Shown here: positions 3,776 through 50,815 of the stretch, piece by piece
Position numbering within the stretch: the first letter of the stretch is position 1
Layout of the letters: each line of letters begins with the position of its first letter
Virus record (IMG/VR): IMGVR_UViG_3300049914_000132
Location: 1 to 61,801 of that record
DNA from: a virus
Lineage: Duplodnaviria; Caudoviricetes
DNA: 61,801 bases
Strand: one strand, 5' to 3'
The notes under the pieces: model-generated
Told to the model about the DNA's origin: nothing
What the model saw: only the letters and a program-made list of their open reading frames with translations
The model's database searches: none
Translations under genes and position numbers: made by a program

Positions 3776-4231
3776 ATGGACCCAACACTTCAACAGCACT
3801 CAGACATCACATTCCTTGCACTGACCATCTGGAGAGAAGCACGTGGAGAAGGGCACACCTGCAAAGTTGGCGTCGCTTGCTCGATCTTAAACAGGGTCAA
3901 GAATCCAAAGTGGTGGGGAGACAGTGTCTCTGCCGTGCTCTTCAAGAAATGGCAGTACTCTTCACTCACTGATCCGAAAGACAGACAGCTCACGACCTGG
4001 CCATCCGTTGCTGACGTACGATGGGAAGAGTGCTTGCAGATAGCCACGGCTGCTCTTGCAGGAACGCTTGTGAACCCTGTCGCAGGTGCAGACTCGTACT
4101 ACGACGTGTCTATCAGTGCTCCAAGATGGGCAAAGCCTGAGATGTTCGTTGCACAGTTGGACAGGATCAGGTTCTTCAATACAGACAATGATCACGAGCT
4201 GGACGAAACGCACGTAGCCCCTACAACGTAA
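3776..4231 (+). CDS. Endolysin, SleB/Hydrolase_2-type cell wall hydrolase
   Basis: ATG at 3776 after GGAG; LALTIWREARGEG, ILNRV and WQYS motifs. Confidence 0.85.
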   Translation: MDPTLQQHSDITFLALTIWREARGEGHTCKVGVACSILNRVKNPKWWGDSVSAVLFKKWQYSSLTDPKDRQLTTWPSVADVRWEECLQIATAALAGTLVNPVAGADSYYDVSISAPRWAKPEMFVAQLDRIRFFNTDNDHELDETHVAPTT

Positions 4232-4243
4232 AGGAGCAGCACA

Positions 4244-4672
4244 ATGAAGAAGATCAACTACCTCATGTTCACACTCGTTTTCGCCATCGCCATCCTCTGC
4301 GGATACGAGATCGCACTTGCTCAGACTGCGCCTGCACAGCCTGATGCTGGAACTCTCATCGGAACTCTCATCTCGGCAATCCAGGGAAGGAACTGGATCG
4401 TCCTGGTTGGAGTCGTTCTTTCTCTGGTGATCTACGGTCTCCGAACGTGGGGAGGCTCTATCGTTCCGTGGTTCAAGACGAGCCGAGGGGGTGTTGCGCT
4501 CACGCTCATTGTGACCATTGTCGGAACTCTTGCGACCGTGCTCGCCGCAGGAAAGTTCAACTGGAGCTCGCTGATAGACGCTCTGGCTGTTGCAATGACG
4601 ACGGCCGGAGGCTACTCCATGTTCCGCAAGCTCTTCTTCCCGGATGATGTTGCTCCTGCTGTGAAGGTCTAG
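4244..4672 (+). CDS. Putative holin (multi-TM)
   Basis: 3-4 hydrophobic segments; directly after endolysin; AAGGAG RBS. Confidence 0.6.
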   Translation: MKKINYLMFTLVFAIAILCGYEIALAQTAPAQPDAGTLIGTLISAIQGRNWIVLVGVVLSLVIYGLRTWGGSIVPWFKTSRGGVALTLIVTIVGTLATVLAAGKFNWSSLIDALAVAMTTAGGYSMFRKLFFPDDVAPAVKV

Positions 4673-31510: not shown

Positions 31511-31523
31511 CTGGAGGTTTGCT

Positions 31524-31871
31524 ATGTTTATGTCTGAAGTAGAGAAGATCGCTGAAGTGTGCCACGAAACAAACCGAGCATATTGTTGCACGATCGGGGA
31601 CGATTCCCAGCTACCTTGGGCGGAAGCCCCTGAATGGCAGAGTAAGAGTGCCATCGATGGGGTGAAGCACGTGCTTGAGAATCCGGATGCTCCACCGTCC
31701 GCCTCGCATGATTCGTGGCTCGCCGAGAAGAAGGTTGCGGGTTGGAAGTACGGGCCCGTCAAAGACCCGGAGAAGAAGGAACATCCCTGTTTCGTCCCCT
31801 ACGAAGATCTTCCGGAAGAACAGAAGCGGAAGGATACACTGTTCATCGCTGTAGTGAACGCGCTCAAGTAG
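31524..31871 (+). CDS. Stand-alone RyR-domain protein
   Basis: HDSWLAEKKVAGWKYGPVKDPEKKEHPCFVPYEDLPEEQKRKD. Confidence 0.85.
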   Translation: MFMSEVEKIAEVCHETNRAYCCTIGDDSQLPWAEAPEWQSKSAIDGVKHVLENPDAPPSASHDSWLAEKKVAGWKYGPVKDPEKKEHPCFVPYEDLPEEQKRKDTLFIAVVNALK

Positions 31872-31897
31872 TTAACCCGTAGTAAGAAAGGAGCATC

Positions 31898-32215
31898 ATG
31901 AAGATCTGTATGTTTGCTGTACTCGTTGGAATGCTGTTGTCGTGTGGTGTGGATGAGGCATCGACTACCGATGTCAGCCAGGATCAGGAGGGGCTTGCGG
32001 GCTCAAATCCGTTCCTTTGCAAGGGATCGTGTCTGGTCTGCACGAAACGTGACCCAGCCGACAAGCGGAAGTGCCTCGTCTACGGGCGCAAGGCAACTGC
32101 CGTCAAGATTTGTTCTGGCTACACCACTCCTGCATCTGCACTTAGTGATTGTCTGGCTGCGATGACAGGGTGCTTGAATGTCCAGGCGTCAGTGGGCTCG
32201 TTCAGTTGTCCGTAG
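31898..32215 (+). CDS. Cys-rich lipoprotein
   Basis: LLSC lipobox, multiple Cys; AAGGAG RBS. Confidence 0.65.
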   Translation: MKICMFAVLVGMLLSCGVDEASTTDVSQDQEGLAGSNPFLCKGSCLVCTKRDPADKRKCLVYGRKATAVKICSGYTTPASALSDCLAAMTGCLNVQASVGSFSCP

Positions 32216-32227
32216 TCAAACCAGTGG

Positions 32228-32266
32228 CCACCATGATCACTAAGTGTGCTCATGGTGGTTTTCACC
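32228..32266 (+). terminator. Hairpin / possible intrinsic terminator
   Basis: CCACCATGA...TCATGGTGG followed by TTTT. Confidence 0.4.
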
Positions 32267-32289
32267 TTTCTAGAATCAGGAGGCTAAAC

Positions 32290-32772
32290 ATGGCAAAGAT
32301 CAAGCCAGAGGTTGTTGATAGTGTGCTTGCACAGGAGAAGCTGAATGAGTACCTGAACAAGTGCGTTCAGATAGATGGTACTGCGATCAATGATGAGTTC
32401 ATTCAGTTCCCTGCTGACATTGCCTATTGGGCAGCACAGCACTCGAATGCTGTGAAAGCGTTCCTTCGAGCAGACCAAGAGCATGACAAGGTCCGAGCGA
32501 AGAGATGGTTGATCATTCGGGAGGAGCTGCTTGCAAAGGGAGACAAAGCCACAGAGAAGACGGTAGAGGCTTCTGTAGAGTGTGATGCAGAATACCAGGA
32601 AGTACGCTATAGGTACGTGGAGGCAGAAGCAGAGAAGGTTCGATTGGCTGGTATCATGGAGGCTATGAAATCGAAAAAGGAAATGCTCATTTCTCTTGGG
32701 GCAAATCTGAGGGTGGAGATGGGCAGTGATCCAATGATCCGAAGTCAGCAAAGGGAATCAAAGGTCAGGTGA
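32290..32772 (+). CDS. UvsY-like recombination mediator
   Basis: ID..INDEFIQFP..IAYW..; TEKTVEASV..D.EY; EAMKSKKEMLISLGANLR. Confidence 0.6.
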   Translation: MAKIKPEVVDSVLAQEKLNEYLNKCVQIDGTAINDEFIQFPADIAYWAAQHSNAVKAFLRADQEHDKVRAKRWLIIREELLAKGDKATEKTVEASVECDAEYQEVRYRYVEAEAEKVRLAGIMEAMKSKKEMLISLGANLRVEMGSDPMIRSQQRESKVR

Positions 32773-32776
32773 GCAC

Positions 32777-33061
32777 ATGCGCGTTGATGGTGACTGGTTC
32801 GGTATCATCCTATACTCAATCATCCTAGTTGCTGCTTTGATCCTGTTGTTTGCTAAGGGTTGCATGACAAGCTCAGAAGAGACGATCAATTCGGTGTCTG
32901 CTTATGGCTTCAAGGACATACGGACTGGAGATTGGACGATAGGCTGTTCTGAAGGAGAAAGGCTTGGTAGGCACTTCACAGCTACGAACTCAGATGGAAA
33001 GATGGTCTCAGGCTATGTCTGCTGTGGCCTGGTTTTCAAGGGCTGTACCGTCAGGTGGTGA
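32777..33061 (+). CDS. Membrane-anchored small protein
   Basis: N-terminal TM; GC..FTATN..G..V.G.VCCG..KGCTVR. Confidence 0.65.
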   Translation: MRVDGDWFGIILYSIILVAALILLFAKGCMTSSEETINSVSAYGFKDIRTGDWTIGCSEGERLGRHFTATNSDGKMVSGYVCCGLVFKGCTVRW

Positions 33062-33178
33062 TCCAAACTTAGCACTTGCAGCGTGCTACAGTTTGTGCTA
33101 GGTTACACTATATGTGCTAAAGGGCACACTACAAGCAAAACACAACTCAAACCCCCAAACTCCTACTAGGACAACAAA

Positions 33179-33961
33179 ATGGCGAAACCGCAAGAGAAGG
33201 CAGAGAAGACGAAGGCGCTGGCGAAGTATGGAAGCTATACGCTGGACGACGCAGAAAAGGAAGCACACGAGCTGGAACAAGAGGGTGGCGGTTTTCTGAA
33301 ACTCAAAGTCGGGCAGAACATCGTCAGGTTCCTTCCTCCGCTTACTGGTAGGAAGCTCTTCGTAGTTGTGCATCAGCACCACGTGGAGAACCCCGGAGAG
33401 GGGAAAACGTTCAGCTTCGCATGTCCCCGAGTCATGCAGAAGAAGCCTTGTGCTCTTTGCGACAAGGGGAATGAGCTGCGCGCCACAGGGAACCGTGTGG
33501 ACTACGATCTTGGTGGAAAGATGCTGCCAAGACGCCGAGTGTTCAGCAACGTCATTGACATGTCAAATCCGGAAGCAGGTCCACAGATCCTTGCGTTTGG
33601 TAGGCAGATTCACGAGCAGCTTGTGCAGATCAGGCGCAACGAGACAGCGGGTGATGATTACACGGATCCGGAGAACGGGTTCAACATTAGCATCGAGCGC
33701 AAGGGCACAGGTATTCGCGACACAAAGTACACGTGTCTGCCCAGTCGAAAGACATCCAAGCTGACGAACATGGATTGGATCGAGATGCAGCATGACCTGA
33801 CACGGTTCACGATGGTTCCAACTTCGGAAGAGATCAAGAAGTACATGAGCGAGACCGACTTTGGGGCAGACGAAGCATCGGCTGTGTCAGGCGCTCGGGA
33901 TGTAACGCCACCGAAGAAGTCGAGAAACGCCGCAGACGATATGGAAGACTACGGAGATTGA
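33179..33961 (+). CDS. T4 gp32-like single-stranded DNA-binding protein
   Basis: FLKLKVGQNIVRFLPP, H..C..CALC zinc site, DPENGFNI.I.R.G.G..TKY, acidic tail. Confidence 0.75.
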   Translation: MAKPQEKAEKTKALAKYGSYTLDDAEKEAHELEQEGGGFLKLKVGQNIVRFLPPLTGRKLFVVVHQHHVENPGEGKTFSFACPRVMQKKPCALCDKGNELRATGNRVDYDLGGKMLPRRRVFSNVIDMSNPEAGPQILAFGRQIHEQLVQIRRNETAGDDYTDPENGFNISIERKGTGIRDTKYTCLPSRKTSKLTNMDWIEMQHDLTRFTMVPTSEEIKKYMSETDFGADEASAVSGARDVTPPKKSRNAADDMEDYGD

Positions 33962-34039
33962 AAGGTTTGCTTGGGCTGTTCTTGTTTCGCTGCTAAACGG
34001 CTTACACGATCCAGCACTTTAGTCTGGCGTGGCAGTCCA

Positions 34040-34227
34040 GGCAATCGATTTGCTGGGAGGTCACTTGGAATGACGAGGTACGGAAAAGATCGTACAGGTC
34101 GTGGCCTGATGCGAGCCCTAAAATCCTCCAATCTGGCTTTTCGCTCTCACGGCGATGCTGCTCGAAGCTTGTGGATCGTTCAGTGACCAGACCAATCCGC
34201 GCGGTGACCCCCAGCAATTGTTTTGCC
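34040..34227 (+). ncRNA. Structured RNA leader of TIGR array 1
   Basis: GGCAATCGATTTGCTGGGAGGTCAC (34040-34064) pairs with GTGACCCCCAGCAATTGTTTTGCC (34204-34227); internal TTGGA/TCCAA and TCTGG/CCAGA domains. Confidence 0.5.
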
Positions 34228-34368
34228 AGCAAGCAAGAGGAAGCCATATAGTATGAGCGTGCCAGACAGATGAAAGTAGCCCATTGATCGGGAGCGAGCC
34301 AGGATGTGAAAGCAGTCCATGATTCGAGAGCGTGCCATGTGTTAGGAGATGACCATATACCGTAAGCA
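34220..34368 (+). ncRNA. TIGR-like guide RNA array 1 (4 units, 36-37 nt)
   Basis: gcca-gcaagcaag-aggaagcca-tatagtatg-agcgtgcca-gacagatgaa-agtagccca-ttgatcggg-agcgagcca-ggatgtgaa-agcagtcca-tgattcgag-agcgtgcca-tgtgttagg-agatgacca-tataccgta-agca. Confidence 0.85.
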
Positions 34369-34410
34369 AAATTGAAGTCAACCACGAAGCAAAAGAGGCT
34401 GGAGATCATT

Positions 34411-35274
34411 ATGGACGGAGAGGCAAGAGAAGCACTGCGTATCACAGTCAGGCACTTCTACGACATTCAGCAAATCAGGATACAGCACTCTGGGAGAATT
34501 GCCAGGAAGTCGGCGACGAACGAGGCGGCAATATCGTCTGAGCACCAGGCTATGTTCTCTGCACAGGTCAAGCGCTTGAAAGCGTCTGAAGCTGATGCAC
34601 TGCTTGACGTCAAAGAAAAGCTCCAATCCTTTGAGCTCTACAGACAGGTTCTTTCTGTGGATGAGGATCGCTGGAAGGGGCTTGGTCCTACAATGTCCGC
34701 TGTCATTCTAGCAGAGGTTGACATTGAGCGTTGTGAAACCCCTTCTGCTCTCTGGCGGTATGCAGGGCTGTCAACAGTCCCATGGAAGCGCTGCAAGCAG
34801 TGCAACCGACTTGCAGATCTACCTTTCGACGTTGTTGATGGTGACATTCTGATCAAGCAAAGCATGAGCAAAGAGTACAAGCACGTCAGGAAGAAAGAGA
34901 ACGAAAAGGGGTGCGATCTGATATGGCTTAAAGAGAATCAGCTATACGACAGTGGGCGCTCTGAGTTCTTGGTGAAGGGTGAGAAGAGACACTTCAATCT
35001 GTTCCTCAAGACCAAGCTTCTTGGCGTGCTTGCTCCGGGTTTTCTGAAGGCGAAGAACCCGGTTTGGAGGAAGGTCTATGATGACTACAAAAACAGGCTG
35101 ATCTCTGCTGGACGTGGTACTTCTCCAGGGCACATTAACAATTCGGCAATACGCTACATGATCAAAATGTTCCTGCTCAATCTGTGGATGGAATGGCGTA
35201 CTTTTGCGAGGCTTCCTGTACGACCGAGCTACCACGAGGAGAAGTTAGGACATGTACACGCAGTTGGTGTATAG
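34411..35274 (+). CDS. tasA: TasA-like Nop-domain (IS110/box C/D-related) RNA-binding protein without nuclease domain
   Basis: YDIQQIRI coiled coil; KGLGPTMSAVILAEVD; SALWRYAGL; YDDYKNR; GHINNSAIRYMIKMFL..LW..WR; no N-terminal DEDD/RuvC domain; flanked by 36-nt arrays; GGAG RBS before ATG 34411. Confidence 0.8.
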   Translation: MDGEAREALRITVRHFYDIQQIRIQHSGRIARKSATNEAAISSEHQAMFSAQVKRLKASEADALLDVKEKLQSFELYRQVLSVDEDRWKGLGPTMSAVILAEVDIERCETPSALWRYAGLSTVPWKRCKQCNRLADLPFDVVDGDILIKQSMSKEYKHVRKKENEKGCDLIWLKENQLYDSGRSEFLVKGEKRHFNLFLKTKLLGVLAPGFLKAKNPVWRKVYDDYKNRLISAGRGTSPGHINNSAIRYMIKMFLLNLWMEWRTFARLPVRPSYHEEKLGHVHAVGV

Positions 35275-35452
35275 CCAGGTCGCCTAAGCAAACCATGAAA
35301 AGAGTGCGAGCCATGTGTTGGGAGCAAACCAGGAACTCAGAGCGAGCCACTATGTCCGATACACACAGAAAAACCGTGCGAGTCAAAGACTAAGCGTAAA
35401 CCAAAATGCGCAAGCGAGCCAGCATACACGAGCAAACCATAGAAAGTCAGCG
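35269..35452 (+). ncRNA. TIGR-like guide RNA array 2 (5 units, exact 36-nt period)
   Basis: agcca-ggtcgccta-agcaaacca-tgaaaagag-tgcgagcca-tgtgttggg-agcaaacca-ggaactcag-agcgagcca-ctatgtccg-atacacaca-gaaaaaccg-tgcgagtca-aagactaag-cgtaaacca-aaatgcgca-agcgagcca-gcatacacg-agcaaacca-tagaaagtc-agcg. Confidence 0.9.
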
Positions 35453-35455
35453 ATC

Positions 35456-36496
35456 ATGCCCAAAGTGACAACACTGAATCGGATCAAAGATGCAGTCAAC
35501 AAGAAGCTAGGCAGGAACTCGGCTGCTGTGCTTGCTTCAAGTGGTGAGATTGAGTCTGAGGTTCGCAACGTCATTCCAACAGGAATTTCCGTTGTGGACA
35601 ACGTGCTCTGCTCAGATCTTGGTGGTTTGCCATGTGGTCGTGTGACGGAGCTGTATGGGCCAAGTGGTGTAGGAAAAACGTCGTTCGTGCAGCAAGCGTT
35701 GGCAGGTGTGCAGCGCGAAGGCGGCGCAGCCATCTACAATGATGACGAGAAGTCTTTGGACATGGAAAGGATCAAGGTGTTCGGCCTTGATCTCGACAAC
35801 TGCCTTGTCTTGCAGCCCCGAAATGCAGAAGAAAGCATCACTGGGATGGTGGAAGCGATCAATGCTTTACTTGATGGTGCTCAGCCCTCTCTTCTGGTCT
35901 GGGATTCGATTGCTGCGTCTGTCCCGCAGACAGAACTAGATGGTGAGATTGGGGATGCAAACATTGGAGTCAAGGGCCGACTGATGTCTCAAGCCATGCG
36001 TGCGCTTGTTCCTTTGGCTGTGCGCAAGCAAGTCGCTCTCCTGTTCGTGAACCAAACTCGCATGAAGATTGGCGTGCGGTTCGGGGACCCTGAGATCACG
36101 ACAGGTGGAGAAGCTCTGAAGTTTGCGGTCAGTCTGAAGATCAGGCTAGGGTCTGGCAAGCCCTATGTGGTTGGGCGTCAAGCACTCGCGAAAGACGTTC
36201 CATTTGTTGTACGGAAGTCGAGGTTTTCACCACCTGGTTCTCGTGTTGCTGTGCGCCTCAATTTCGCACGAGGCTGGGACGAGGTATGGAGCACTCTTGA
36301 TTACGCGAAGCATCTAGGGCTGACCGAAAAGACAGCCCGTGGTTGGAATGCGTACTTAGGGGCGTTGGAGGCTTTGGAGTGGGAAGTGCCTTGGACCGCA
36401 AATGAGCAGATGGCCAGCTTTGCAGAAAAGGAGCTGGGTGACGCAAAGGCAAAAGCAAAGGACGAGGGTGACGAAGAGGACGATGTAGACAACTAG
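35456..36496 (+). CDS. recA: RecA/UvsX-like recombinase
   Basis: IPTG, GGLPCGRVTELYGPSGVGKT, DDEKSLD, WDSIAA, RLMSQAMR, NQTR.KIGV.FG.PE.TTGG.ALKF. Confidence 0.92.
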   Translation: MPKVTTLNRIKDAVNKKLGRNSAAVLASSGEIESEVRNVIPTGISVVDNVLCSDLGGLPCGRVTELYGPSGVGKTSFVQQALAGVQREGGAAIYNDDEKSLDMERIKVFGLDLDNCLVLQPRNAEESITGMVEAINALLDGAQPSLLVWDSIAASVPQTELDGEIGDANIGVKGRLMSQAMRALVPLAVRKQVALLFVNQTRMKIGVRFGDPEITTGGEALKFAVSLKIRLGSGKPYVVGRQALAKDVPFVVRKSRFSPPGSRVAVRLNFARGWDEVWSTLDYAKHLGLTEKTARGWNAYLGALEALEWEVPWTANEQMASFAEKELGDAKAKAKDEGDEEDDVDN

Positions 36497-36515
36497 CAGT
36501 AACACGGAGGATGAA

Positions 36516-36983
36516 ATGGCAGAGAAGACAGTTGTGCGGATCAATGCAGAGGCCGAAAAGATCGCGAAGTCATTCATGAACTCTCGCGGTTTAGACTCAA
36601 TAGGCGAAGCGGTGGAGAAGCTCATTGGAACAGCTTCTAGCCGTCTTTCCGCACTTGCAAAGTACGCGACCAAGCAGGGGAAGATAGCAAAGCCGAAGGG
36701 GGCTAAGGCTGAGAAAGCAGCCAAGACCAAGAAGACGAAGGCTCCGAAGAAAGCGGGACTTGCTGCCAAGCTGTCCAAAGGCCCGAAGCCTGAGAAGAAG
36801 AGCACATCGAAGCTGGGGGGCAATCGCAAGAGAGTCAAGGTGACAACTGAGCCTGTAGACTTCAGGGTCAACACTGGAGCACCAAGCGCAGAGAATCATG
36901 ATCGATTGGAAACGCACAACGTTGATGAAGCAAACAAGGGAGCAGAGCTGGACGCCGACTTGGCAGCAGGCACAGTGGACTGA
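36516..36983 (+). CDS. Basic K/A-rich DNA-binding protein candidate
   Basis: N-terminal RHH-like pattern, histone-H1-like KA/KP repeats; GGAGG RBS. Confidence 0.55.
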   Translation: MAEKTVVRINAEAEKIAKSFMNSRGLDSIGEAVEKLIGTASSRLSALAKYATKQGKIAKPKGAKAEKAAKTKKTKAPKKAGLAAKLSKGPKPEKKSTSKLGGNRKRVKVTTEPVDFRVNTGAPSAENHDRLETHNVDEANKGAELDADLAAGTVD

Positions 36984-37022
36984 AACAAATACAGACACCA
37001 GCAAAAGAAAGGACGGATCGAA

Positions 37023-37241
37023 ATGGCTTCAAAGAAAAAGACACTTGTAGAGCTGTTTGCTTTGAACTTCGCCAAGCTTCGTGCAGAGCGCAAGCTCACA
37101 CAGCAAAAGCTAGCAGAAGAGATGGGCATGTCAGTCTCGTACGTTTCGATGTTGGAACGTGGGGAGCGCACTCCGCCGCTGAGCACGCTGGAAAAGATCG
37201 GTCAGGCGTTGGGTGTTGATCCTTTGGAACTGCTTGAGTAG
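37023..37241 (+). CDS. XRE-family HTH transcriptional regulator
   Basis: LRAERKLTQQKLAEEMGMSVSYVSMLERGERTPPLSTLEKIGQALGV. Confidence 0.92.
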   Translation: MASKKKTLVELFALNFAKLRAERKLTQQKLAEEMGMSVSYVSMLERGERTPPLSTLEKIGQALGVDPLELLE

Positions 37242-37244
37242 TTT

Positions 37245-37465
37245 GTTCTGCTACTGTGGTGGAGAACACTAGGAAGGAAGAGCGCACCAAAGTTCGCGAG
37301 CAAACCAAGAAGCACAAGTGGGCCATAAGTCAGAGCAAACCAAGACGCGCGATCGAGTCATATCTCAGGAGTAAACCATCAAGTAAGAGTGTGCCATAGT
37401 CCATGAGCACACCAGACACGAAGATCGAGCCAAGGTCTATGAGTACACCAGATAGTGATAGCGCA
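37245..37465 (+). ncRNA. TIGR-like guide RNA array 3 (5 clear units + 1 degenerate)
   Basis: agcgcacca-aagttcgcg-agcaaacca-agaagcaca-agtgggcca-taagtcag-agcaaacca-agacgcgcg-atcgagtca-tatctcagg-agtaaacca-tcaagtaag-agtgtgcca-tagtccatg-agcacacca-gacacgaag-atcgagcca-aggtctatg-agtacacca-gatagtgat-agcg. Confidence 0.88.
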
Positions 37466-37481
37466 TTGTTGGAGGCTGGAA

Positions 37482-38615
37482 ATGAGAATCGCATTTTGCA
37501 GTGATGTGCATGTAGCAAACCACAAGCAGAACGGTGGGGCTGTAGTGTCAGGGCTCAATGAAAGGTGCCAAGACACCATCAGCGTTCTTCGCCAGGCAGT
37601 GCTGAAAGCGATCACTGAAAACTGCGATGCTCTTGTGATTGCAGGTGATCTATTTGATTCAGCAAAGCCAGAGCCCCAGATCATTGCAGAGGTACAAAGG
37701 TCTTTTGTTGGGACCAGTCTGTCCATCTACGTCATGAAAGGCAATCATGATGAGACAAGCTCTGCTCCTGGTGATCACGCTTTGGGGCCGTTAGCACCAC
37801 TTGGCCCAGCTGTTCGTGTGATTGAACAGCCTGTCCTTGCTCAAGCTTTGTCTGATGGAGACCTGATTCTTGTTCCATTCAGGAGTGGGCTTGCATCTAC
37901 ATGGCTGTCTGAGGCAATCTCTTCTACAGCCGAGGTGCAACGTACAGACCGCACGAAAAGCGGTAGACGTCCAGCCTCCCGCCCGCGTGCGCTCGCGTTG
38001 CACCTTGGCCTAACTGATGATCGTATGGCACCATGGCTAAGGGAATCGAGTGGTGCTGTTCTTGCTTCACTCGTCCAGTCTTTGTGCAAAGAGCACAACA
38101 TCGTCTTTGCAGCATCGGGGGACTTCCACGAGTACAAGCTGTGGTCTGAGAAGCCTTGGGTTGTACAGATAGGGGCTCTTTGTCCCACAGGCTGGAGAGA
38201 CCAAGGGTACGAACAGTATGGATCACTGTGCATCTGGGACTCGAAGGCCAAGAGCTACGAACGTCATGTGATCCCAGGTCCACGCTTTTTGTTCAATCCC
38301 AGAGCGCACGATCTTGTTGTTGCGAAGAGAGCTGGCCACAAGATCTATGTGCGGTACACTGCAAGCAACATGGATGAGAAGTTAGCTCTGAAAGAGCGCT
38401 TGGAAGCGGATCTCAAGTCGGGACGAGTGCATTTTGGCTCTGTCGAGATAGATCAGACATCTACCATCGTTGCTGCTCGTTCTGCTGCTATGGCTGCAAA
38501 GTCGTCGAAGACACGTGATGACGCCTTGGATGCCTTTGTTCGGAACATGCCTCTGGAAGATGGCGTAGACAGAGCTGATGTGTTGGAGCGATCCAAGAGC
38601 TATCTTGAAAAATGA
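37482..38615 (+). CDS. sbcD: SbcD/Mre11-like metallophosphoesterase nuclease
   Basis: SDVH, AGDLFD, GNHD, LHLG, GDFH; GGAGG RBS. Confidence 0.88.
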   Translation: MRIAFCSDVHVANHKQNGGAVVSGLNERCQDTISVLRQAVLKAITENCDALVIAGDLFDSAKPEPQIIAEVQRSFVGTSLSIYVMKGNHDETSSAPGDHALGPLAPLGPAVRVIEQPVLAQALSDGDLILVPFRSGLASTWLSEAISSTAEVQRTDRTKSGRRPASRPRALALHLGLTDDRMAPWLRESSGAVLASLVQSLCKEHNIVFAASGDFHEYKLWSEKPWVVQIGALCPTGWRDQGYEQYGSLCIWDSKAKSYERHVIPGPRFLFNPRAHDLVVAKRAGHKIYVRYTASNMDEKLALKERLEADLKSGRVHFGSVEIDQTSTIVAARSAAMAAKSSKTRDDALDAFVRNMPLEDGVDRADVLERSKSYLEK

Positions 38616-38628
38616 GCAGGAGATCCTG

Positions 38629-40359
38629 ATGAGCATTGCGATCGGTAAGGTAGAACTGAGAAACCTGTTTCTACACAAGTCTACAGATCTTGTGCTCCCT
38701 AAGCGTGGGATCGTTCTTGTCACAGGACCAAACGGCTCTGGGAAAAGCGGTCTGATTGAGGGGGTGAGTGTGGCGGTCTTTGGCAAGACCCTACGAGGAA
38801 CGCCCCCTTGGAGCCAGGGTCATGCGTGCAGTGCGACAGCCTATGCGTCTGGGGCTCACCCCTTGGTGGTCACCAGGGCAAACGCCAAGGGCAAGACTAC
38901 GCTGGCCTGGGGGCCACCTGGCAAGGGGCCAGGAACCACCTACGAGAGCACCACCAAGGCGCAGGAAGCCCTAGAAGCTGTGGTCGGGAGCTGGAACGTA
39001 TGGCGCAGGTCTGCCGTATTTAGCAGCTCGGACGCTTCTCACTTCACCTTGGCCAGGGATGGCGAGCGGAAGGCTTTGTTGGAGGAGATCCTAGGCTTGA
39101 GTGAATTCGACATAGCTCTTTCACACTGTCGATCTGACCTTAAGTATGCTGAAGCGGCTTTGGACAGTGCCAGACGGGAAGAGGAGAAATGGTCCATTCA
39201 GCTAGCTGAACGATCAAAGCACTTGGAAGAGCTGCAAGGGATGAACCTGATTGAGCCGTCTAACCCTATTGGCGTAGTCAAGTTAGACACGGAGCCATTG
39301 CAGAATGAAGTGACTCGTCTGCATGCTCTCGTTAAGGGCTGTGAGAAAGATCAAGCAGATCTTAGGAAACAGCACTTGACAATCTCTTCTACAGGTGGGG
39401 AAGACAAGGCAAAGCTCGCTGAGCTAACACGCCGATCGTCCATGCTGTCAAAGGAAAAGTGTCCGACTTGCTTGCAGCCTATTAGTTCAGAAACGCGCAG
39501 AAGGCTTGATGAGGAGATAGGCAAGGTCAGGCTGGCTGCTGAAAAGGCAGAGCTTGCTTCAAGGAAAGAGTTCGCCAGTTTGAATGATGGCATGATCGAC
39601 AGTGATTCTGAGCTGGAAGCACTTAACGCTAAGTTAAGTGCCGCTCGGAGAGAACTGACGGAGGCTGAGCAAACGAACGTGGCAGAGCAGCAACGATATG
39701 ACAATGCTCTAGTGGTGTATGAGCGGGATCTTGCTGCGTACGAGAGCTTGGCTGAAAGGCTGAGCAGAGCTGATGCTGCTGTGCATGAGGCTTCGGCTGC
39801 TCAGTTTGACGCTGCTGTTGGGTTGGGGAAGCATGAGAAGGGGGTTGCTGTCCTTCGAGCTGTGGAGCAAGTGCTCGGTTTGCGAGGCTTGAGAGCGCAT
39901 GTGCTTGGGAGTGCTCTTTCTGGGTTGGAAGCTGTTGCGAATCATTGGCTTGCTCGGATCTGTGGAAACAATGAACTCAGGCTGGAGCTGAAGCCTTACA
40001 CCGAACAAAAGACTGGGGGCATAGCGGACGCCATCTCGCTTGAAGTGGTAGGCGCAGGGGGTGGCTATGGCTACCGAGCAAGCAGCGGTGGAGAACGCAG
40101 GCGCATAGACATCGCTCTGCTTCTTGCGCTTGCAGAGGTTGCAGGCGCAGCACATAGGTCAGCAGAAGACTCGACGCTGTTCTTTGACGAGTGCATGGAC
40201 GCTCTCGACGAAGATGGAGCGGACGCAGTAGCATCAGCATTGTACGACTTGGCAAAGAACAGAGCTGTGCTTGTGATCACGCACTCTGAGGTTCTTTCTA
40301 GTAGGATCGAGGCGGACGTTAGACTTAGAGTAGAGAATGGAACTGTAATCACTCTTTGA
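38629..40359 (+). CDS. sbcC: SbcC/Rad50-like SMC ATPase
   Basis: GPNGSGKS, coiled coils with CPTC zinc hook, SSGGERRR signature, FFDECMDALD, ITH. Confidence 0.9.
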   Translation: MSIAIGKVELRNLFLHKSTDLVLPKRGIVLVTGPNGSGKSGLIEGVSVAVFGKTLRGTPPWSQGHACSATAYASGAHPLVVTRANAKGKTTLAWGPPGKGPGTTYESTTKAQEALEAVVGSWNVWRRSAVFSSSDASHFTLARDGERKALLEEILGLSEFDIALSHCRSDLKYAEAALDSARREEEKWSIQLAERSKHLEELQGMNLIEPSNPIGVVKLDTEPLQNEVTRLHALVKGCEKDQADLRKQHLTISSTGGEDKAKLAELTRRSSMLSKEKCPTCLQPISSETRRRLDEEIGKVRLAAEKAELASRKEFASLNDGMIDSDSELEALNAKLSAARRELTEAEQTNVAEQQRYDNALVVYERDLAAYESLAERLSRADAAVHEASAAQFDAAVGLGKHEKGVAVLRAVEQVLGLRGLRAHVLGSALSGLEAVANHWLARICGNNELRLELKPYTEQKTGGIADAISLEVVGAGGGYGYRASSGGERRRIDIALLLALAEVAGAAHRSAEDSTLFFDECMDALDEDGADAVASALYDLAKNRAVLVITHSEVLSSRIEADVRLRVENGTVITL

Positions 40360-40369
40360 AAGAGGGCAC

Positions 40370-41044
40370 ATGGCTAAGAAAAAAGCAGGGCCTGAACAAG
40401 TACGCATTGAGTACATGCCGCTTTCCGAGCTTGTACCTGCGGAGAGAAACCCGAAGCAGCACAACCTAGACGCTCTTGGCGATTCTATCGTGCGATGGGG
40501 CTATGTTCAGCCGGTCACAATCAATGAGGCTACAGGGCGCCTCGTGGCAGGGCATGGGCGCACAGAGAAGCTTGCTCACATGAAAGCTGCTGGGGAGGAT
40601 GCACCTGGCCGAGTACAGGTACGGAAGAAGGACGGGGAATGGCTTGTTCCAGTGGTCAGGGGGGTGAGCTTTGCCAATGATCAGGAAGCTGAAGCCTACT
40701 TGCTGGCGGACAACAGGCTCACGGAGATTGGCCATTGGGACGAAGAGCTGCTCGGCCAGGTCTTGAGCGAGTTCGCAGAGGTTGGCCCTGAGTCTTTTGT
40801 CGGCCTTGGCTGGGACATGCAAGATGTGGTGACCATGGAGACCGAGAAGGAGCTTGCTGATCTCAAGATGGCACCTGTTGGGATTGCTGCTGAGAACACG
40901 GCAGAGGATCCGCGCAGCAAGCAGTTCTGGGTCTGGGCTGCTTGTGAGAGCGCTGAGCAAATGCAAGAGGTCGTTGCTAGGTTCGGCAAGCCAGGGAAGG
41001 GCAAGACCAGCAGAGAATTGGACATCGCTTTGATCATGAGGTGA
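40370..41044 (+). CDS. ParB N-terminal domain protein
   Basis: RNPKQH..LGDSIVRWGYVQPV..LVAGHGR..AYLLADNRLTE..WD. Confidence 0.85.
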   Translation: MAKKKAGPEQVRIEYMPLSELVPAERNPKQHNLDALGDSIVRWGYVQPVTINEATGRLVAGHGRTEKLAHMKAAGEDAPGRVQVRKKDGEWLVPVVRGVSFANDQEAEAYLLADNRLTEIGHWDEELLGQVLSEFAEVGPESFVGLGWDMQDVVTMETEKELADLKMAPVGIAAENTAEDPRSKQFWVWAACESAEQMQEVVARFGKPGKGKTSRELDIALIMR

Positions 41045-41046
41045 TT

Positions 41047-42465
41047 ATGGCTTGTGGTAACTGCTCTTTGTGCGGTACTCGAACGTATTGCCAGCCGCTC
41101 AAGGGCAAGCCCAAGTCATATGGGGGCTACAGGTTCACAGCCGATTGCTTTGATTGTGCAATCCAGCTTTCATTGGACACGTACTCAGCGTGCAGTTTTG
41201 ACTGTTTGTATTGTTTCAGTAATTACTTAGCGCGAAACCCTGAGCTGAAGAAGCGGAATCCGAACGCGAAACCGTCTGACGGTACAGTTGGGGCGATGAG
41301 CCCAGCTGTGTTGGAAGACATACTCGATCTGAGCCGGACAGGTGGGGCTCGCGAGGTCTTTCGCAGCTACATTCGGCATTCCAAAGGGCGCAAGGTTATT
41401 CAGTGGGGTGCTCTTGGTGATCCGTTTGACAACATAGAGCGCTGGCAGCGGGTAGGTCTTCAGCTCATTCCGATCTTTCAGAAGTACAACCAGCCGACTC
41501 GAATAAGCACAAAAGGTGGGCTGCTCCTTCAGGACAAGGAGTATCTATCCACCATCGCCAAGTACCCAGAGATCTTCTGGTTCGCGTTCTCCACGATAAC
41601 GATCGACGATGAGGTGCTTGCTTCTGTGGATAGGATGGCGCCAAACGCAACAGAGCGCCTGAAGGCTATGAAGATCCTGACGTCAATGGGCTGTAGGGCG
41701 AGCTTGCGCATGCGTCCGATACTCAAGAACGTGACGGATACCACAGCAAAGCATCCGAACGCATGGCGCGAGCTGATGCACAGGGCACGCGAAGCAGGTG
41801 CGGAAGCTGTCAGTATGGAGTTTGTCTTTGTGCCTGGAGCAGAACGAGCAGGGGTCAAGTGGAGATGGGACGAGATAGAGAAGATCACACGCTTTCCGTA
41901 CAGGAAGTTCTACAAGAGCACGAGTGATTGCTTCAGTGCATGCTTGCGCAGCAGCAGAGCGTGGAAAGAAGAGCTGACGTTCGCCATACGAGATGAGGCG
42001 CACAAGCTGGGCATGGTCTTTTCAATCAGTGATCCGCATTGGAAAGAGCTGAACGACACAGGATGCTGCTGTGGGATGACTGACACTGATCCTGTGTTTG
42101 GTATCTGGGAGAAGAAGCAAGCGTGCCAGGCATTGCTCACGGCCAAGGCTGACTCAGAGCACGGTGGGGATGGCCTGATATACATCGAAGACGTGATTCC
42201 GGATTGGGCTCGTAAGGTGACGGCGAGGAGCTTGATCTGTGTGACAGGGCCGAAAGCGATCACAGCGAATAGGCTAAGCTTTGCTGATTGGCATCATGTG
42301 TCCATCTGGAACAACCCAGGCAAGGCGCGCGGGCCTAGGATCTACTTTGGGGGCGTCCTTGAGCCTGTTGGGATGGATGTGAATAAGAACCTGGTCTACA
42401 AGTATGCTGCTCGGGGTAGGTCATTCAAGGACTACGGATGGAATGTAGGGGACGAGCATGAGTGA
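41047..42465 (+). CDS. Radical SAM protein (spore photoproduct lyase-like)
   Basis: LDTYSACSFDCLYCF (CxxxCxxC), GALGDPF, ISTKG, ERLKAM, LRMRPI, GCCCG. Confidence 0.85.
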   Translation: MACGNCSLCGTRTYCQPLKGKPKSYGGYRFTADCFDCAIQLSLDTYSACSFDCLYCFSNYLARNPELKKRNPNAKPSDGTVGAMSPAVLEDILDLSRTGGAREVFRSYIRHSKGRKVIQWGALGDPFDNIERWQRVGLQLIPIFQKYNQPTRISTKGGLLLQDKEYLSTIAKYPEIFWFAFSTITIDDEVLASVDRMAPNATERLKAMKILTSMGCRASLRMRPILKNVTDTTAKHPNAWRELMHRAREAGAEAVSMEFVFVPGAERAGVKWRWDEIEKITRFPYRKFYKSTSDCFSACLRSSRAWKEELTFAIRDEAHKLGMVFSISDPHWKELNDTGCCCGMTDTDPVFGIWEKKQACQALLTAKADSEHGGDGLIYIEDVIPDWARKVTARSLICVTGPKAITANRLSFADWHHVSIWNNPGKARGPRIYFGGVLEPVGMDVNKNLVYKYAARGRSFKDYGWNVGDEHE

Positions 42466-42664
42466 CAAATGGCTGACGCTGGATGAGGCTGTTGCGCTAT
42501 TCAGTTCGTCGAACACACTCACATCGCCGTATGTTGCATTCATGGGAAGCTTCTTGGAAAGCTTCTGTAAGGTGACACGTAAGTCAGGGACAATATTCTA
42601 TGATCGTGCATGTGTAGAAGATGCTGTAGCAAGGTTCACAGAGCATACGTTGTCCACACTATAG
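42458..42664 (+). CDS. Small Xis/MerR-like protein
   Basis: WLTLDEAV...IFYDRACVEDAVARFTE. Confidence 0.5.
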   Translation: MSDKWLTLDEAVALFSSSNTLTSPYVAFMGSFLESFCKVTRKSGTIFYDRACVEDAVARFTEHTLSTL

Positions 42665-50515: not shown

Positions 50516-50751
50516 GCTTGATCCGGAAATCTGATCGGATAGCTGCTGCATACACAGAGCTGAGCCTGCTTGGCTTTGGCTGCTTCAAGTGTTCCGCCCC
50601 ACGCTCGAAAGTGTGCTCCATAAACGGGGAGTTAGCACTGCACTGTGTGTTTCAGAACAGCAACTTCGACGCGGACGCAGCCAGGGGTACTCTTGTGTAC
50701 TACGATGTTTATCTGTCAGAAGTTTCAGATTACAGAAACAAGGCAGGATAG
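50512..50751 (+). CDS. Cys-rich paralog
   Basis: DRIAAAYTELSLLGFGCFKC...YDV. Confidence 0.55.
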   Translation: MSLIRKSDRIAAAYTELSLLGFGCFKCSAPRSKVCSINGELALHCVFQNSNFDADAARGTLVYYDVYLSEVSDYRNKAG

Positions 50752-50813
50752 CTTAATGGGAAAGCCTGGGTCATATACACCAGAGACTGTCGGTTCGATT
50801 CCGGCTCCTGCCT
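50742..50813 (+). tRNA. tRNA-like element with aberrant anticodon arm (Met/Ile2 CAT-like or pseudo-tRNA)
   Basis: Acceptor GGCAGGA/TCCTGCC; D arm GCTT/AAGC; T arm GTCGG-TTCGATT-CCGGC; irregular anticodon arm CTGG-GTCATATACA-CCAG; no CCA. Confidence 0.55.
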
Positions 50814-50815
50814 CT

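What the first reader, a model, noticed from the sequence alone, without database searches (positions are those of the whole stretch)
32290..40359. Guide arrays interleaved in a homologous-recombination operon (UvsY-SSB-[array]-Tas-[array]-RecA-XRE-[array]-SbcD-SbcC)
Seen in sequence: each array ends just before a start codon (tas 34411; recA 35456, only 3 nt after the array; sbcD 37482), and array 3 lies 2 kb from tas. Inference, two hypotheses: (a) nuclease-less Tas directs RecA/SbcCD to chosen sites, giving RNA-guided recombination or degradation of competitor DNA; (b) tigRNA excision cuts the polycistronic mRNA and tunes recA/sbcD translation. I am not aware of either coupling having been shown.
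Basis: inference. Interest (0 to 1): 0.75.

Follow-up and report, generated by a model that had tools for sequence, protein, structure and literature searches.

The report
Guide arrays inside phage recombination operon
A phage carries a known kind of RNA-guided DNA-binding system (TIGR-TasA) whose guide arrays sit in the gaps between its DNA-recombination genes; the layout is real and unusual, but it looks like shared transcription rather than a shown joint function.

Summary
Three same-strand arrays (14 units of 36 nt; alternating 10-nt edge and A-rich loop repeats ending in CCA; 8-nt spacers) lie at 34219-34373, 35268-35457 and 37280-37468. They are the only such clusters in the 61.8-kb record. 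The 287-aa protein between arrays 1 and 2 is a nuclease-less Tas. Its best fold and sequence matches are solved TasH and TasR structures, and it keeps the Tyr/His pair that cuts pre-tigRNA in SpTasH. A 90%-identical relative keeps the layout but has replaced spacers in 3 of 9 comparable units.

This is a new member of the published TIGR-TasA family. A functional link between Tas and RecA/SbcCD is not supported. The two nearest Tas relatives sit in other contexts, and 69 of 80 Tas-bearing viral records have no RecA. Still, tas lies beside RecA or SbcC-like genes in about 7 separate lineages, twice inside a split sbcCD operon.

The arrays show no promoter or terminator of their own. They are probably co-transcribed, so Tas processing would cut the mRNA just upstream of recA and sbcD. 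That step is inferred; no RNA data exist.

The parts
32290..32772 (+).
   Evidence: phrog_1069 at 8e-20 (unknown function), phrog_231 'UvsY-like recombination mediator' at 1.6e-6, no Pfam hit
32777..33061 (+).
   Evidence: phrog_902 at 2e-9; 100% conserved in L002
33179..33961 (+). gp32-type single-strand DNA-binding protein
   Evidence: PF08804 at 2.2e-15, phrog_1192 at 2.4e-28
34223..34252 (+). Promoter-like site TTGCCA-18-TATAGT at the head of array 1; a possible start of the array 1/tas transcript
   Evidence: Best site of the 11-kb scan (10 of 12), but the number of sites in the region equals chance (6 against 6.1). Nearly conserved in L002
34219..34373 (+). TIGR array 1: 4 units. Its loop repeats are more degenerate than those of arrays 2 and 3. 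Unit 1 overlaps the promoter-like site and may not be a guide
   Evidence: Register; lag-36 signal; unit 3 spacers replaced in L002
34411..35274 (+). tasA: nuclease-less TIGR-associated Nop-domain protein, 287 aa. N-terminal coiled coil, Cys/His insertion at 122-184, C-terminal loop with Y274 and H281
   Evidence: phmmer against PDB: TasH 1.6e-10, 9mty 3e-10. AF2 model pLDDT 90.2. Foldseek top 10 are all TasH or TasR. phrog_4285 at 1.5e-34
35268..35457 (+). TIGR array 2: 5 units. The first truncated edge overlaps the tas stop codon and the last truncated edge overlaps the recA start codon. The loop repeat of unit 3 lacks CCA
   Evidence: Units 1-2 have replaced spacers and units 3-5 are nearly identical in L002
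35456..36496 (+). RecA/UvsX-type recombinase with no recognisable Shine-Dalgarno sequence upstream
   Evidence: PF00154 at 2.3e-54 from residue 11; phrog_97 at 3.3e-54; sequence
36516..36983 (+).
   Evidence: No Pfam or PHROG hit; 75% conserved in L002
37023..37241 (+). XRE-family helix-turn-helix protein
   Evidence: PF01381 at 4.3e-18
37280..37468 (+). TIGR array 3: 5 units, 2.0 kb downstream of tas. Ends with a truncated edge, then GGAGG and the sbcD start
   Evidence: Unit-sized gain and loss in contigs of related strains
37482..38615 (+). SbcD/Mre11-type phosphoesterase
   Evidence: PF00149 at 8e-11 from residue 1; phrog_100 at 2.4e-10
38578..40359 (+). SbcC/Rad50-type ATPase
   Evidence: phrog_77 at 2.4e-51; SMC_N, AAA_23 and SbcC_Walker_B
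40370..41044 (+). ParB-like protein directly after sbcC. Context only: not shown to be the published TasParB partner
   Evidence: phrog_620 at 2.1e-28. BLASTP E = 0.058 against the ParB-like neighbour of tas in L075. ParB-like neighbours of tas in L065, L079, L090 and L075 hit phrog_1033 instead

Best explanation
This is a genuine dual-repeat TIGR-TasA system of a freshwater-sediment phage. Its 14 guide units are split into three sub-arrays that occupy the gaps of a same-strand replication/recombination block: gp32 - [array] - tasA - [array] - recA - 155-aa ORF - XRE - [array] - sbcD - sbcC.

Shown here: the array anatomy, the Tas fold, the absence of a nuclease domain, conservation of the Tyr/His pair, and spacer turnover between strains.

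Known from published work on relatives: Tas dimers cut the precursor in the middle of edge repeats into 36-nt tigRNAs. Each tigRNA pairs spacer A with one DNA strand and spacer B with the other. TasA binds DNA without cutting it and can repress transcription.

Inferred here: the arrays are transcribed by read-through with the flanking genes, so the tie to the recombination genes is positional and transcriptional (same module, same timing). A side effect follows. Tas processing or binding would sever or occupy the mRNA immediately upstream of tas, recA and sbcD. At recA, the last guide unit covers the ribosome landing site.

The guides most likely aim at DNA outside this phage, in the host or in rival elements. 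Those targets are unknown.
For: - Array anatomy meets the published definition: two alternating 10-nt repeats, both starting with GAG-like bases and ending in CCA; an A-rich loop repeat; 8-nt spacers; 36-nt units; truncated edges at the array ends.
- Tas identity: phmmer hits TasH (1.6e-10) and the 9mty chain (3e-10). The AF2 model has pLDDT 90.2. The ten best Foldseek matches are TasH or TasR chains (E 7e-8 to 5e-6, TM 0.58-0.75), followed by IS621.
- No nuclease domain: 287 aa starting with a coiled coil; no HNH or RuvC hit.
- Processing pair: Y274 and H281 align without gaps to SpTasH Y289 and H296, named as the catalytic residues in PMC13421893.
- The guides are evolving. Against L002 (tas DNA 759/864 identical), repeats differ at 14 of 200 positions and spacers at 29 of 145. 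23 of those 29 fall in 3 units. Contigs of related strains show a 38-nt skip and a 35-nt insertion in array 3.
- Co-transcription: no terminator-like site in any intergenic gap and no promoter-like site before arrays 2 or 3. Relatives show the same tight packing against the next start codon (L075, L014, L004).
- Positional rather than functional tie: L014 and L015 sit in other contexts. RecA is present in only 11 of 80 Tas-bearing viral records, and in 5 of the 20 that are at least 90% complete. A family-A DNA polymerase lies within 8 kb of tas in 10 other loci, so tas often sits in replication modules.
- TasA acts alone as an RNA-guided repressor (Xu 2026 preprint, sections read).
Against: - No RNA data: no listed run is RNA. 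Co-transcription and processing are therefore inferred.
- The promoter and terminator scans use E. coli-type consensus for an unknown host, and the number of promoter-like sites equals chance.
- Proximity of tas to recombination genes recurs more often than a purely accidental reading would predict. An AAA_23/SbcC-like gene lies within 3 kb of tas in 5 of the 14 records that have one, against 2.0 expected (nominal P 0.03). RecA lies within 6 kb in 5 of 11, against 2.9 expected (P 0.10).
- In L075 and L080, tas and its arrays lie inside a split sbcC-N / sbcD / sbcC-C operon. L102 has RecT - AAA_23 - tas.
- No target was found for any guide, so the repressor role is taken over from relatives.
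- Some units look defective: the loop of array 2 unit 3 lacks CCA, and array 1 unit 1 overlaps a promoter-like site.
Confidence: 0.6

Rival explanations
1. Functional cooperation. The nuclease-less TasA RNP acts as a programmable protein block or strand opener on target DNA. The phage's own SbcCD cuts next to it, and UvsY/gp32/RecA use the ends. The result would be RNA-guided breakage or recombination of host or rival DNA.
For: - tas and three arrays are embedded among gp32, recA and sbcDC.
- tas sits beside RecA or SbcC-like genes in about 7 separate Tas lineages: the label needs 7 changes on the tree, at least 5 of them forced.
- tas and arrays lie inside a split sbcC-N/sbcD/sbcC-C operon in L075 and L080.
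- L102 has RecT - AAA_23 - tas, and L004, L021 and L092 have an AAA_23 ATPase directly upstream of tas.
- AAA_23 proximity is 5 against 2.0 expected.
- SbcCD is reported to cut DNA near a protein block (abstract of PMC6265447, seen in the listing).
Against: - 69 of 80 Tas-bearing viral records lack RecA and 66 of 80 lack AAA_23; 15 of the 20 near-complete ones lack RecA.
- The nearest relatives L014 and L015, and the sister rows of L075 and L080, have no such neighbours.
- RecA proximity is not above uniform placement (P 0.10).
- The 3-kb cut-off was chosen after seeing the data, and replication and recombination genes cluster anyway.
- TasA works alone as a repressor.
- Faure 2025 reports only a parB-like partner from its neighbour census.
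Confidence: 0.08
2. Adaptive post-transcriptional control. The sub-arrays are kept at these sites because Tas binding or cutting sets the amount or timing of recA and sbcD translation. For example, it could turn recA mRNA into a nearly leaderless message, or mask its ribosome site.
For: - The last truncated edge of array 2 contains the recA ATG, and there is no Shine-Dalgarno sequence upstream.
- The three recA-proximal units differ from L002 at 4 of 108 positions, against about 12% in the flanking genes, while units 1-2 were replaced.
- Arrays abut the next start codon in relatives too: in L075 the edge repeat is followed directly by ATG, and L014 and L004 are similar.
- The Tyr/His pair is present.
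- The Xu 2026 preprint raises coupling of tigRNA maturation with translation for tas itself.
Against: - The genes that follow arrays differ from relative to relative (LysM protein, terminase, ATPase, unknown genes), so no specific regulon is conserved.
- The conserved recA-proximal units may only reflect spacer gain at the other end of the array.
- Faure 2025 found that processing needs full edge repeats, so the truncated last edge may not be cut.
- No expression data exist.
Confidence: 0.22
3. Decaying or inactive remnant. The arrays are leftovers of a once contiguous TIGR array broken up by gene insertions, and they no longer make working guides.
For: - Several repeats are degenerate: the array 1 loops, the loop of array 2 unit 3, and two edges ending in TCA.
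- The arrays are short (4-5 units), whereas Faure 2025 gives 5-15 as most common.
- No targets were found.
Against: - tas is intact, folds with high confidence and keeps its invariant residues.
- Repeats are conserved about three times better than spacers between strains, and whole units are replaced or gained.
- 12 of 14 internal edges and 13 of 14 loops keep CCA.
Confidence: 0.05

Closest known systems
Dual-repeat TIGR-TasA systems (e.g. the Flavonifractor plautii FpTIGR locus; Faure et al. 2025, PMC12045711; sections read)
   Same: Solo Nop-domain Tas. Alternating edge and loop repeats with a CCA 'box C'. An A-rich loop repeat. 36-nt units. Truncated edges at the array ends. Arrays upstream and downstream of tas. 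Phage origin.
   Different: The spacers are 8 nt rather than the usual 9. The guides are split into three short sub-arrays, one of them 2 kb from tas behind three other genes. No terminator follows the arrays; each runs into the next gene's start.
SpTasH of Salicola phage CGphi29 (PDB 9w03, 21kl; PMC13421893, passages read)
   Same: Best sequence and fold match. 8-nt spacers, 16 nt in all. The C-terminal Tyr/His pair for metal-independent pre-tigRNA cutting is conserved (Y274, H281).
   Different: SpTasH has an N-terminal HNH nuclease and cuts DNA. The window's protein has none. Sequence identity is only about 18-21% over the fold alignment.
TasA as an RNA-guided transcriptional repressor (MbTasA; Xu et al. 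2026 preprint, 10.64898/2026.09.09.750476; sections read)
   Same: A nuclease-less Tas that should bind DNA by guide pairing without cutting. Array positions around tas are flexible.
   Different: The tested MbTasA belongs to the preprint's set of inactive effectors, which is mainly about stem-loop arrays that lack the Tyr/His loop. Here the arrays are dual-repeat and the loop is present. No target or repression is shown for this locus.
tasParB-tasA operons (Faure et al. 2025, Methods section read; fig. S14 not seen)
   Same: 10-nt repeats. Arrays upstream, downstream and between genes of one operon. A ParB-like gene lies in the same block (40370-41044). Relatives L065, L079, L090 and L075 show ParB-like genes adjacent to tas.
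   Different: The window's ParB-like gene is 5 kb from tas, beyond recA and sbcDC. It hits phrog_620 rather than phrog_1033 and is not detectably similar to L075's (E = 0.058).

Membership tests
TIGR-Tas | Associated protein with a Nop-domain fold and a coiled-coil dimerisation element | tested here: met
   phmmer against PDB: TasH 1.6e-10, 9mty 3e-10. AF2 pLDDT 90.2 with N-terminal helices 3-30 and 43-71. Foldseek top 10 are all TasH or TasR, then IS621.
TIGR-Tas | Array of two distinct alternating 8-12-nt repeats (edge, loop) separated by spacers of about 9 nt (8-12), giving 36-nt units | tested here: met
   10-nt edge (GAGCGAGCCA type) and loop (GAGCAAACCA type) repeats. Spacers are 8 nt, with one of 9 and one of 7. 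There are 14 units in 3 arrays, the only such clusters in the window. Definition taken.
TIGR-Tas | Box C (CCA at the 3' end) and a shared 5' motif (box D) in both edge and loop repeats; A-rich loop repeat | tested here: met
   12 of 14 internal edges and 13 of 14 loops end in CCA. Both repeat types begin with GAG or a close variant. The loop core is CAAA. The published TasR box D is UG; here it is GAG-like, and such divergence is said to covary between the two repeats.
TIGR-Tas | [quoted passage not shown] | tested here: met
   All three arrays end in an edge that keeps only its 5' part (AAGCAAAATT, CAGCGATCAT, TAGCGCATTG). Arrays 1 and 2 begin with an edge that keeps only ...GCCA.
TIGR-Tas | Rho-independent terminator after the array (typical, per Faure 2025) | tested here: not met
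   No terminator-like site in any intergenic gap of 31400-42600; each array runs into a start codon. The paper describes this feature as typical, not defining. Relative L102 does have a hairpin after its array.
TIGR-Tas | Array transcript processed into Tas-bound 36-nt tigRNAs | not testable with these tools
   No RNA run holds the stretch. Indirect support: Y274 and H281 align with the SpTasH processing pair Y289 and H296. Y274 is invariant in 32 clade members.
TIGR-Tas | Spacers vary while repeats stay constant between related loci | tested here: met
   Against L002, repeats differ at 14 of 200 positions and spacers at 29 of 145, with 23 of the 29 in 3 units. Unit-sized insertion and skip in array 3 in contigs of other runs.
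TasA subtype (nuclease-less) | No HNH or RuvC domain N-terminal to the Nop domain | tested here: met
   287 aa; the model starts with the coiled coil. Pfam gives only a sub-threshold Transposase_20 hit. The search for longer fused forms was not run.
tasParB-tasA operon | A parB-like gene in the same operon, adjacent to tasA | tested here: not met
   The ParB-like gene lies 5.1 kb downstream, after recA and sbcDC. It belongs to a different PHROG than the tas-adjacent ParB-like genes of L065, L079, L090 and L075. BLASTP E = 0.058.
   RecA is present in 11 of 80 Tas-bearing viral records and lies within 6 kb of tas in 5. AAA_23 is present in 14 of 80 and lies within 3 kb in 5. The nearest relatives L014 and L015 lack both nearby.

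The most novel reading that the evidence does not exclude
Nuclease-less TasA serves as a programmable roadblock for a phage-encoded SbcCD. The guide-bound Tas dimer opens and bends the target. SbcCD, which is reported to cut next to protein blocks, makes the break. UvsY/gp32/RecA then process the ends. Together this would be RNA-guided DNA breakage or recombination assembled from separate genes of one operon. The recurrence of tas and arrays beside, or inside, RecA and split-SbcCD operons in about 7 Tas lineages would be the footprint of that partnership.
Probability: 0.07. Interest if true: 0.85.

Novelty: new member of a known kind. Interest (0 to 1): 0.42.

Why it matters
The natural role of nuclease-less TasA is an open question in both papers read. 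No targets and no partners other than a ParB-like protein are known.

This locus is a clean, well-conserved natural case. The guides are physically built into the transcripts of recA and sbcDC. It therefore allows two simple tests: whether Tas processing shapes neighbouring mRNAs, and whether TasA cooperates with end-processing enzymes.

The comparative result also matters. tas is usually in replication modules, sometimes inside sbcCD operons, but mostly without any phage RecA or SbcCD. That tempers the attractive 'RNA-guided recombination' reading, while giving a short list of loci (this window, L075, L080, L102, L004) in which to test it.

Tried and rejected
- **Self-targets.** All 14 guides were tried in both tandem geometries (rc(A)+B and B+rc(A)) on both strands of the window. 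There were 0 sites with up to 2 mismatches (permuted spacers gave a mean of 0.98 at exactly 2 mismatches) and 22 against 13.75 (at most 24) at 3 mismatches.
- **Targets in the fetched loci.** 0 sites with up to 1 mismatch in 1.47 Mb. Public collections were not scanned with 16-nt words, because chance matches would swamp any signal; the Xu 2026 preprint makes the same point.
- **RNA evidence.** No RNA holder is listed among the 5 runs found.
- **Tas + RecA complex prediction.** No verdict: score 0.00, mark 0.32 (after queue refusals).
- **Rfam.** Only a chance-level miRNA match on 31000-42000.
- **Close phage relatives.** Deposited phage genomes gave only phiRSL1 (Tas 30% identity, no recA nearby) and a 191-nt UvsX match in Tunturiibacter phage Tunturi_4, which has a different gene order. 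gp32 and RecA searches of viral contigs gave no closer genome than the 4.3-kb L002.
- **A fourth array.** A lag-36 signal in L002 at 4108-4298 is a Lys-rich coding repeat, not an array.
- **ParB-like gene as TasParB.** Not supported.
- **First, stricter self-similarity scan.** It found only array 3.

Full report
**What is there**

The window is a whole IMG/VR virus record, linear and about 64% complete. Its runs of origin are freshwater-sediment metagenomes. From about 14.9 kb onward almost all genes are on the + strand.

The stretch 28.9-42.5 kb encodes, in order:
- a family-A DNA polymerase with an N-terminal uracil-DNA-glycosylase domain
- a RyR-domain protein
- a 105-aa ORF
- a weak UvsY-like protein
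- a 94-aa ORF
- a gp32-type SSB
- RecA
- a Lys-rich 155-aa ORF
- an XRE HTH protein
- SbcD
- SbcC
- a ParB-like protein
- a radical-SAM protein

**The arrays are real**

Direct-repeat search first showed 18- and 36-nt-spaced families shared by the three gaps. Four further checks agree:
- A relaxed repeat pattern gives four clusters in the 61.8 kb, all on the + strand. Three are the arrays and one (523-562) is irregular. 200 shuffles gave a mean of 0.135 clusters.
- The loop word with up to 2 mismatches occurs 111 times against 69 +/- 9 expected.
- A lag-36 self-similarity scan finds exactly the three gaps and nothing in shuffles.
- Other intergenic gaps of more than 200 nt in the window hold no such cluster.

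Cut in register, the arrays are alternating 10-nt repeats with 8-nt spacers.
- One repeat type is GAGCGAGCCA-like. I call it the edge, because it is the one truncated at the array ends.
- The other is GAGCAAACCA-like and A-rich. This is the loop.

This matches the published description: both repeats share their first bases and end in CCA, the loop is A-rich, and the arrays start and end with truncated edges (Faure 2025, sections read). 12 of 14 internal edges and 13 of 14 loops end in CCA.

| Array | Units | Coordinates |
|---|---|---|
| 1 | 4 | 34219-34373 |
| 2 | 5 | 35268-35457 |
| 3 | 5 | 37280-37468 |

- The first truncated edge of array 2 contains the tas stop codon.
- The last truncated edge of array 2 contains the recA ATG.
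- Array 3 is followed by GGAGG and the sbcD ATG 13 nt later.
- Array 1 ends 37 nt before the tas ATG.

**The protein is a nuclease-less Tas**

- Pfam gives only a sub-threshold IS110-type hit. PHROGs gives phrog_4285, labelled 'transposase', at 1.5e-34.
- Against solved structures by sequence it hits TasH (1.6e-10) and chain 9mty_A (3e-10).
- An AlphaFold2 model built on 32 clade members has pLDDT 90.2.
- The model's ten best Foldseek matches are all TasH or TasR chains, followed by IS621 recombinase.
- It begins with the coiled coil and has no nuclease domain, so it is TasA in the published naming.
- In the ungapped phmmer alignment, Y274 and H281 sit opposite SpTasH Y289 and H296. PMC13421893 names these as the catalytic residues for metal-independent pre-tigRNA maturation.
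- The Xu 2026 preprint says this pair is kept in dual-repeat systems and lost in stem-loop ones.
- The clade also shares a Cys/Cys/His/Cys insertion.

**The guides are evolving**

L002 is a 4.3-kb contig with a 90%-identical Tas. It has the same order: UvsY-like, 94-aa ORF, SSB, array, tas, array, recA, 155-aa ORF. It is too close to count as independent synteny, but it shows how the arrays change:

| Region compared with L002 | Result |
|---|---|
| tas DNA | 759 of 864 positions identical |
| recA DNA | 916 of 1041 positions identical |
| Repeats | 14 of 200 positions differ |
| Spacers | 29 of 145 positions differ |

23 of the 29 spacer differences fall in three units (array 2 units 1-2, array 1 unit 3). 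These are effectively replaced. The three recA-proximal units of array 2 differ at only 4 of 108 positions.

Contigs from other sediment runs carry a 38-nt skip and a 35-nt insertion in array 3, the latter holding a loop-like and an edge-like word.

**Is the tie to recombination genes conserved?**

I collected 105 loci with Tas relatives.

The closest relatives sit elsewhere.
- L014 (54% identity) is a complete 75-kb genome with no RecA. Its arrays flank tas and run into a LysM gene.
- L015 (47% identity) has five sub-arrays spread over 7 kb. They are interleaved with the large terminase and unknown genes.

So interleaving recurs in this clade, but the interleaved genes differ.

Across the family, extra sub-arrays that share repeat words and lie more than 1 kb from tas were flagged in 16 of 104 loci. 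About 8-11 of these are convincing. In three of them (L065, L079, L090) the gene in between is the ParB-like partner already published.

Whole-record searches of 80 Tas-bearing viral records gave these counts:

| Family | Records with a match | Among the 20 records at least 90% complete |
|---|---|---|
| RecA (PF00154) | 11 of 80 | 5 of 20 |
| SbcC-like (phrog_77) | 11 of 80 | 6 of 20 |
| AAA_23 (PF13476) | 14 of 80 | 7 of 20 |

Where present:
- RecA lies within 6 kb of tas in 5 records (L003, L029, L030, L075, L080) and 16-154 kb away in 6.
- AAA_23 lies within 3 kb in 5 records (L004, L021, L030, L075, L080) and 9-94 kb away in 9.

Against uniform placement within each record, that is 5 against 2.9 expected (P 0.10) for RecA and 5 against 2.0 (P 0.03) for AAA_23. 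The cut-offs were chosen after seeing the data.

**Results against my reading**

- On a quick tree of 98 Tas rows, the loci beside RecA or AAA_23 need 7 changes, at least 5 of them forced. They are therefore separate lineages, not one clade. L001, L005 and 8 loci with matches under 200 residues were left out.
- L075 reads: gp32 - RecA - ... - exonuclease - SbcC N-half - SbcD - 87-aa ORF - [array] - SbcC C-half-like - [array] - tasA - ParB-like - [array]. Its repeats are almost the window's, and one edge repeat is followed directly by an ATG.
- L080 reads: PolIII/UDG ... RecA ... SbcC N-half - tasA - [array] - SbcD - SbcC C-half.
- L102 reads: RecT - AAA_23 - tasA - [array].

These cases keep the cooperation idea alive.

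Against cooperation:
- The sister rows of L075 and L080 have no AAA_23 anywhere in their records.
- A family-A polymerase lies within 8 kb of tas in 10 other loci, so tas simply tends to live in replication modules.

**How it most likely works**

Published for relatives:
- The Tas dimer cuts the array transcript in the middle of edge repeats to 36-nt tigRNAs.
- Spacer A pairs with one strand and spacer B with the other strand of adjacent target halves.
- TasA binds without cutting and represses transcription.

Inferred here:
- The only good promoter-like site (10 of 12) sits at the head of array 1. None precedes arrays 2 or 3, and no terminator-like site lies in any gap. The number of sites in the scan equals chance, and the host is unknown.
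- The arrays are therefore probably part of the polycistronic RNA.
- If so, processing separates tas from recA, and XRE from sbcD.
- The last guide unit of array 2 covers the region where a ribosome would land on recA, which has no Shine-Dalgarno sequence.

Whether this is selected regulation or a tolerated side effect cannot be told from sequence.

**Targets**

None of the 14 guides has a site with up to 2 mismatches in the window, or with up to 1 mismatch in 1.47 Mb of fetched loci.

**Literature**

- Faure 2025 (Science; sections and passages read) contains no occurrence of RecA, SbcC or UvsX. It reports only a parB-like partner.
- The Xu 2026 preprint (five sections read) and the 2026 'Asymmetric DNA targeting' preprint (passages) do not mention such partners.
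- Full-text searches for TIGR-Tas with RecA, and for TasA or tigRNA with SbcC, UvsX, Mre11 or Rad50, found no paper that links them. I checked two hits by passages.
- Supplements of these works were not seen.

**Verdict**

The locus is a new member of the known TIGR-TasA kind with an uncommon dispersed-array layout. The proposed coupling to RecA/SbcCD is not supported as a conserved feature, but it is not excluded. The mRNA-cutting consequence is plausible and testable.

Noticed in passing
L075:4392-7462, L080:6799-11319, L030:10268-12926: Three distant phages carry a split SbcC: an N-terminal AAA_23 half, then SbcD (Metallophos), then a separate protein of about 210 aa matching the C-terminal part of SMC_N. 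The L075 and L080 C-halves are 38% identical (E = 1e-45). In L075 and L080, tas and TIGR arrays are inserted inside this three-gene set.
   Followed up: partly
L015:1970-9100: A 47%-identical Tas relative has five TIGR sub-arrays (about 23, 2, 7, 5 and 6 units) spread over 7 kb. They are interleaved with the large terminase subunit and unknown genes.
   Followed up: partly
window 34338-34345 and 35314-35321: Spacer A of array 1 unit 4 and spacer A of array 2 unit 2 differ by one base, within a 59-nt stretch that is 73% identical between arrays 1 and 2. This suggests the sub-arrays arose by duplication.
   Followed up: no
window 33962-34218: The 257-nt stretch between the SSB stop and array 1 holds a block (about 34048-34110) that is nearly identical in L002, flanked by diverged or deleted sequence. 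The RNA fold z-score is -2.43 (3 of 200 shuffles fold as well) and there is no Rfam match. Function unknown.
   Followed up: partly
window 34774-34962 (Tas residues 122-184): The Tas clade shares a beta-rich insertion with invariant C128, C131 and C168 and near-invariant H158. This is a likely zinc ribbon, at the place where published Tas proteins have a 'wedge' insertion.
   Followed up: no
window 28892-31510: A family-A DNA polymerase is fused to an N-terminal uracil-DNA-glycosylase-superfamily domain and a 3'-5' exonuclease. L080 has a PolIII-alpha with a C-terminal UDG domain.
   Followed up: no
window 36516-36983; L002:3999-4340: A Lys/Ala/Pro-rich 155-aa protein sits between recA and the XRE gene. 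In L002 its 12-residue coding repeats mimic a 36-nt array signal.
   Followed up: partly
L102:5721-9800; L021:1689-4313; L092:499-2829: Three nearly identical Tas proteins, from a viral contig, a Planctomycetota MAG and a Competibacteraceae MAG, each have a 474-518-aa AAA_23 ATPase directly upstream. In L102 a RecT gene precedes it, and a roughly 25-unit array ending in a hairpin follows tas.
   Followed up: partly
window 50742-50814: The only tRNA gene in the record is a single tRNA-Ile with anticodon TAT.
   Followed up: no
L014:12301-14619, L015:10460-13369: Large structural genes (GP88-like, portal) in the two nearest Tas relatives carry intein and LAGLIDADG insertions.
   Followed up: no
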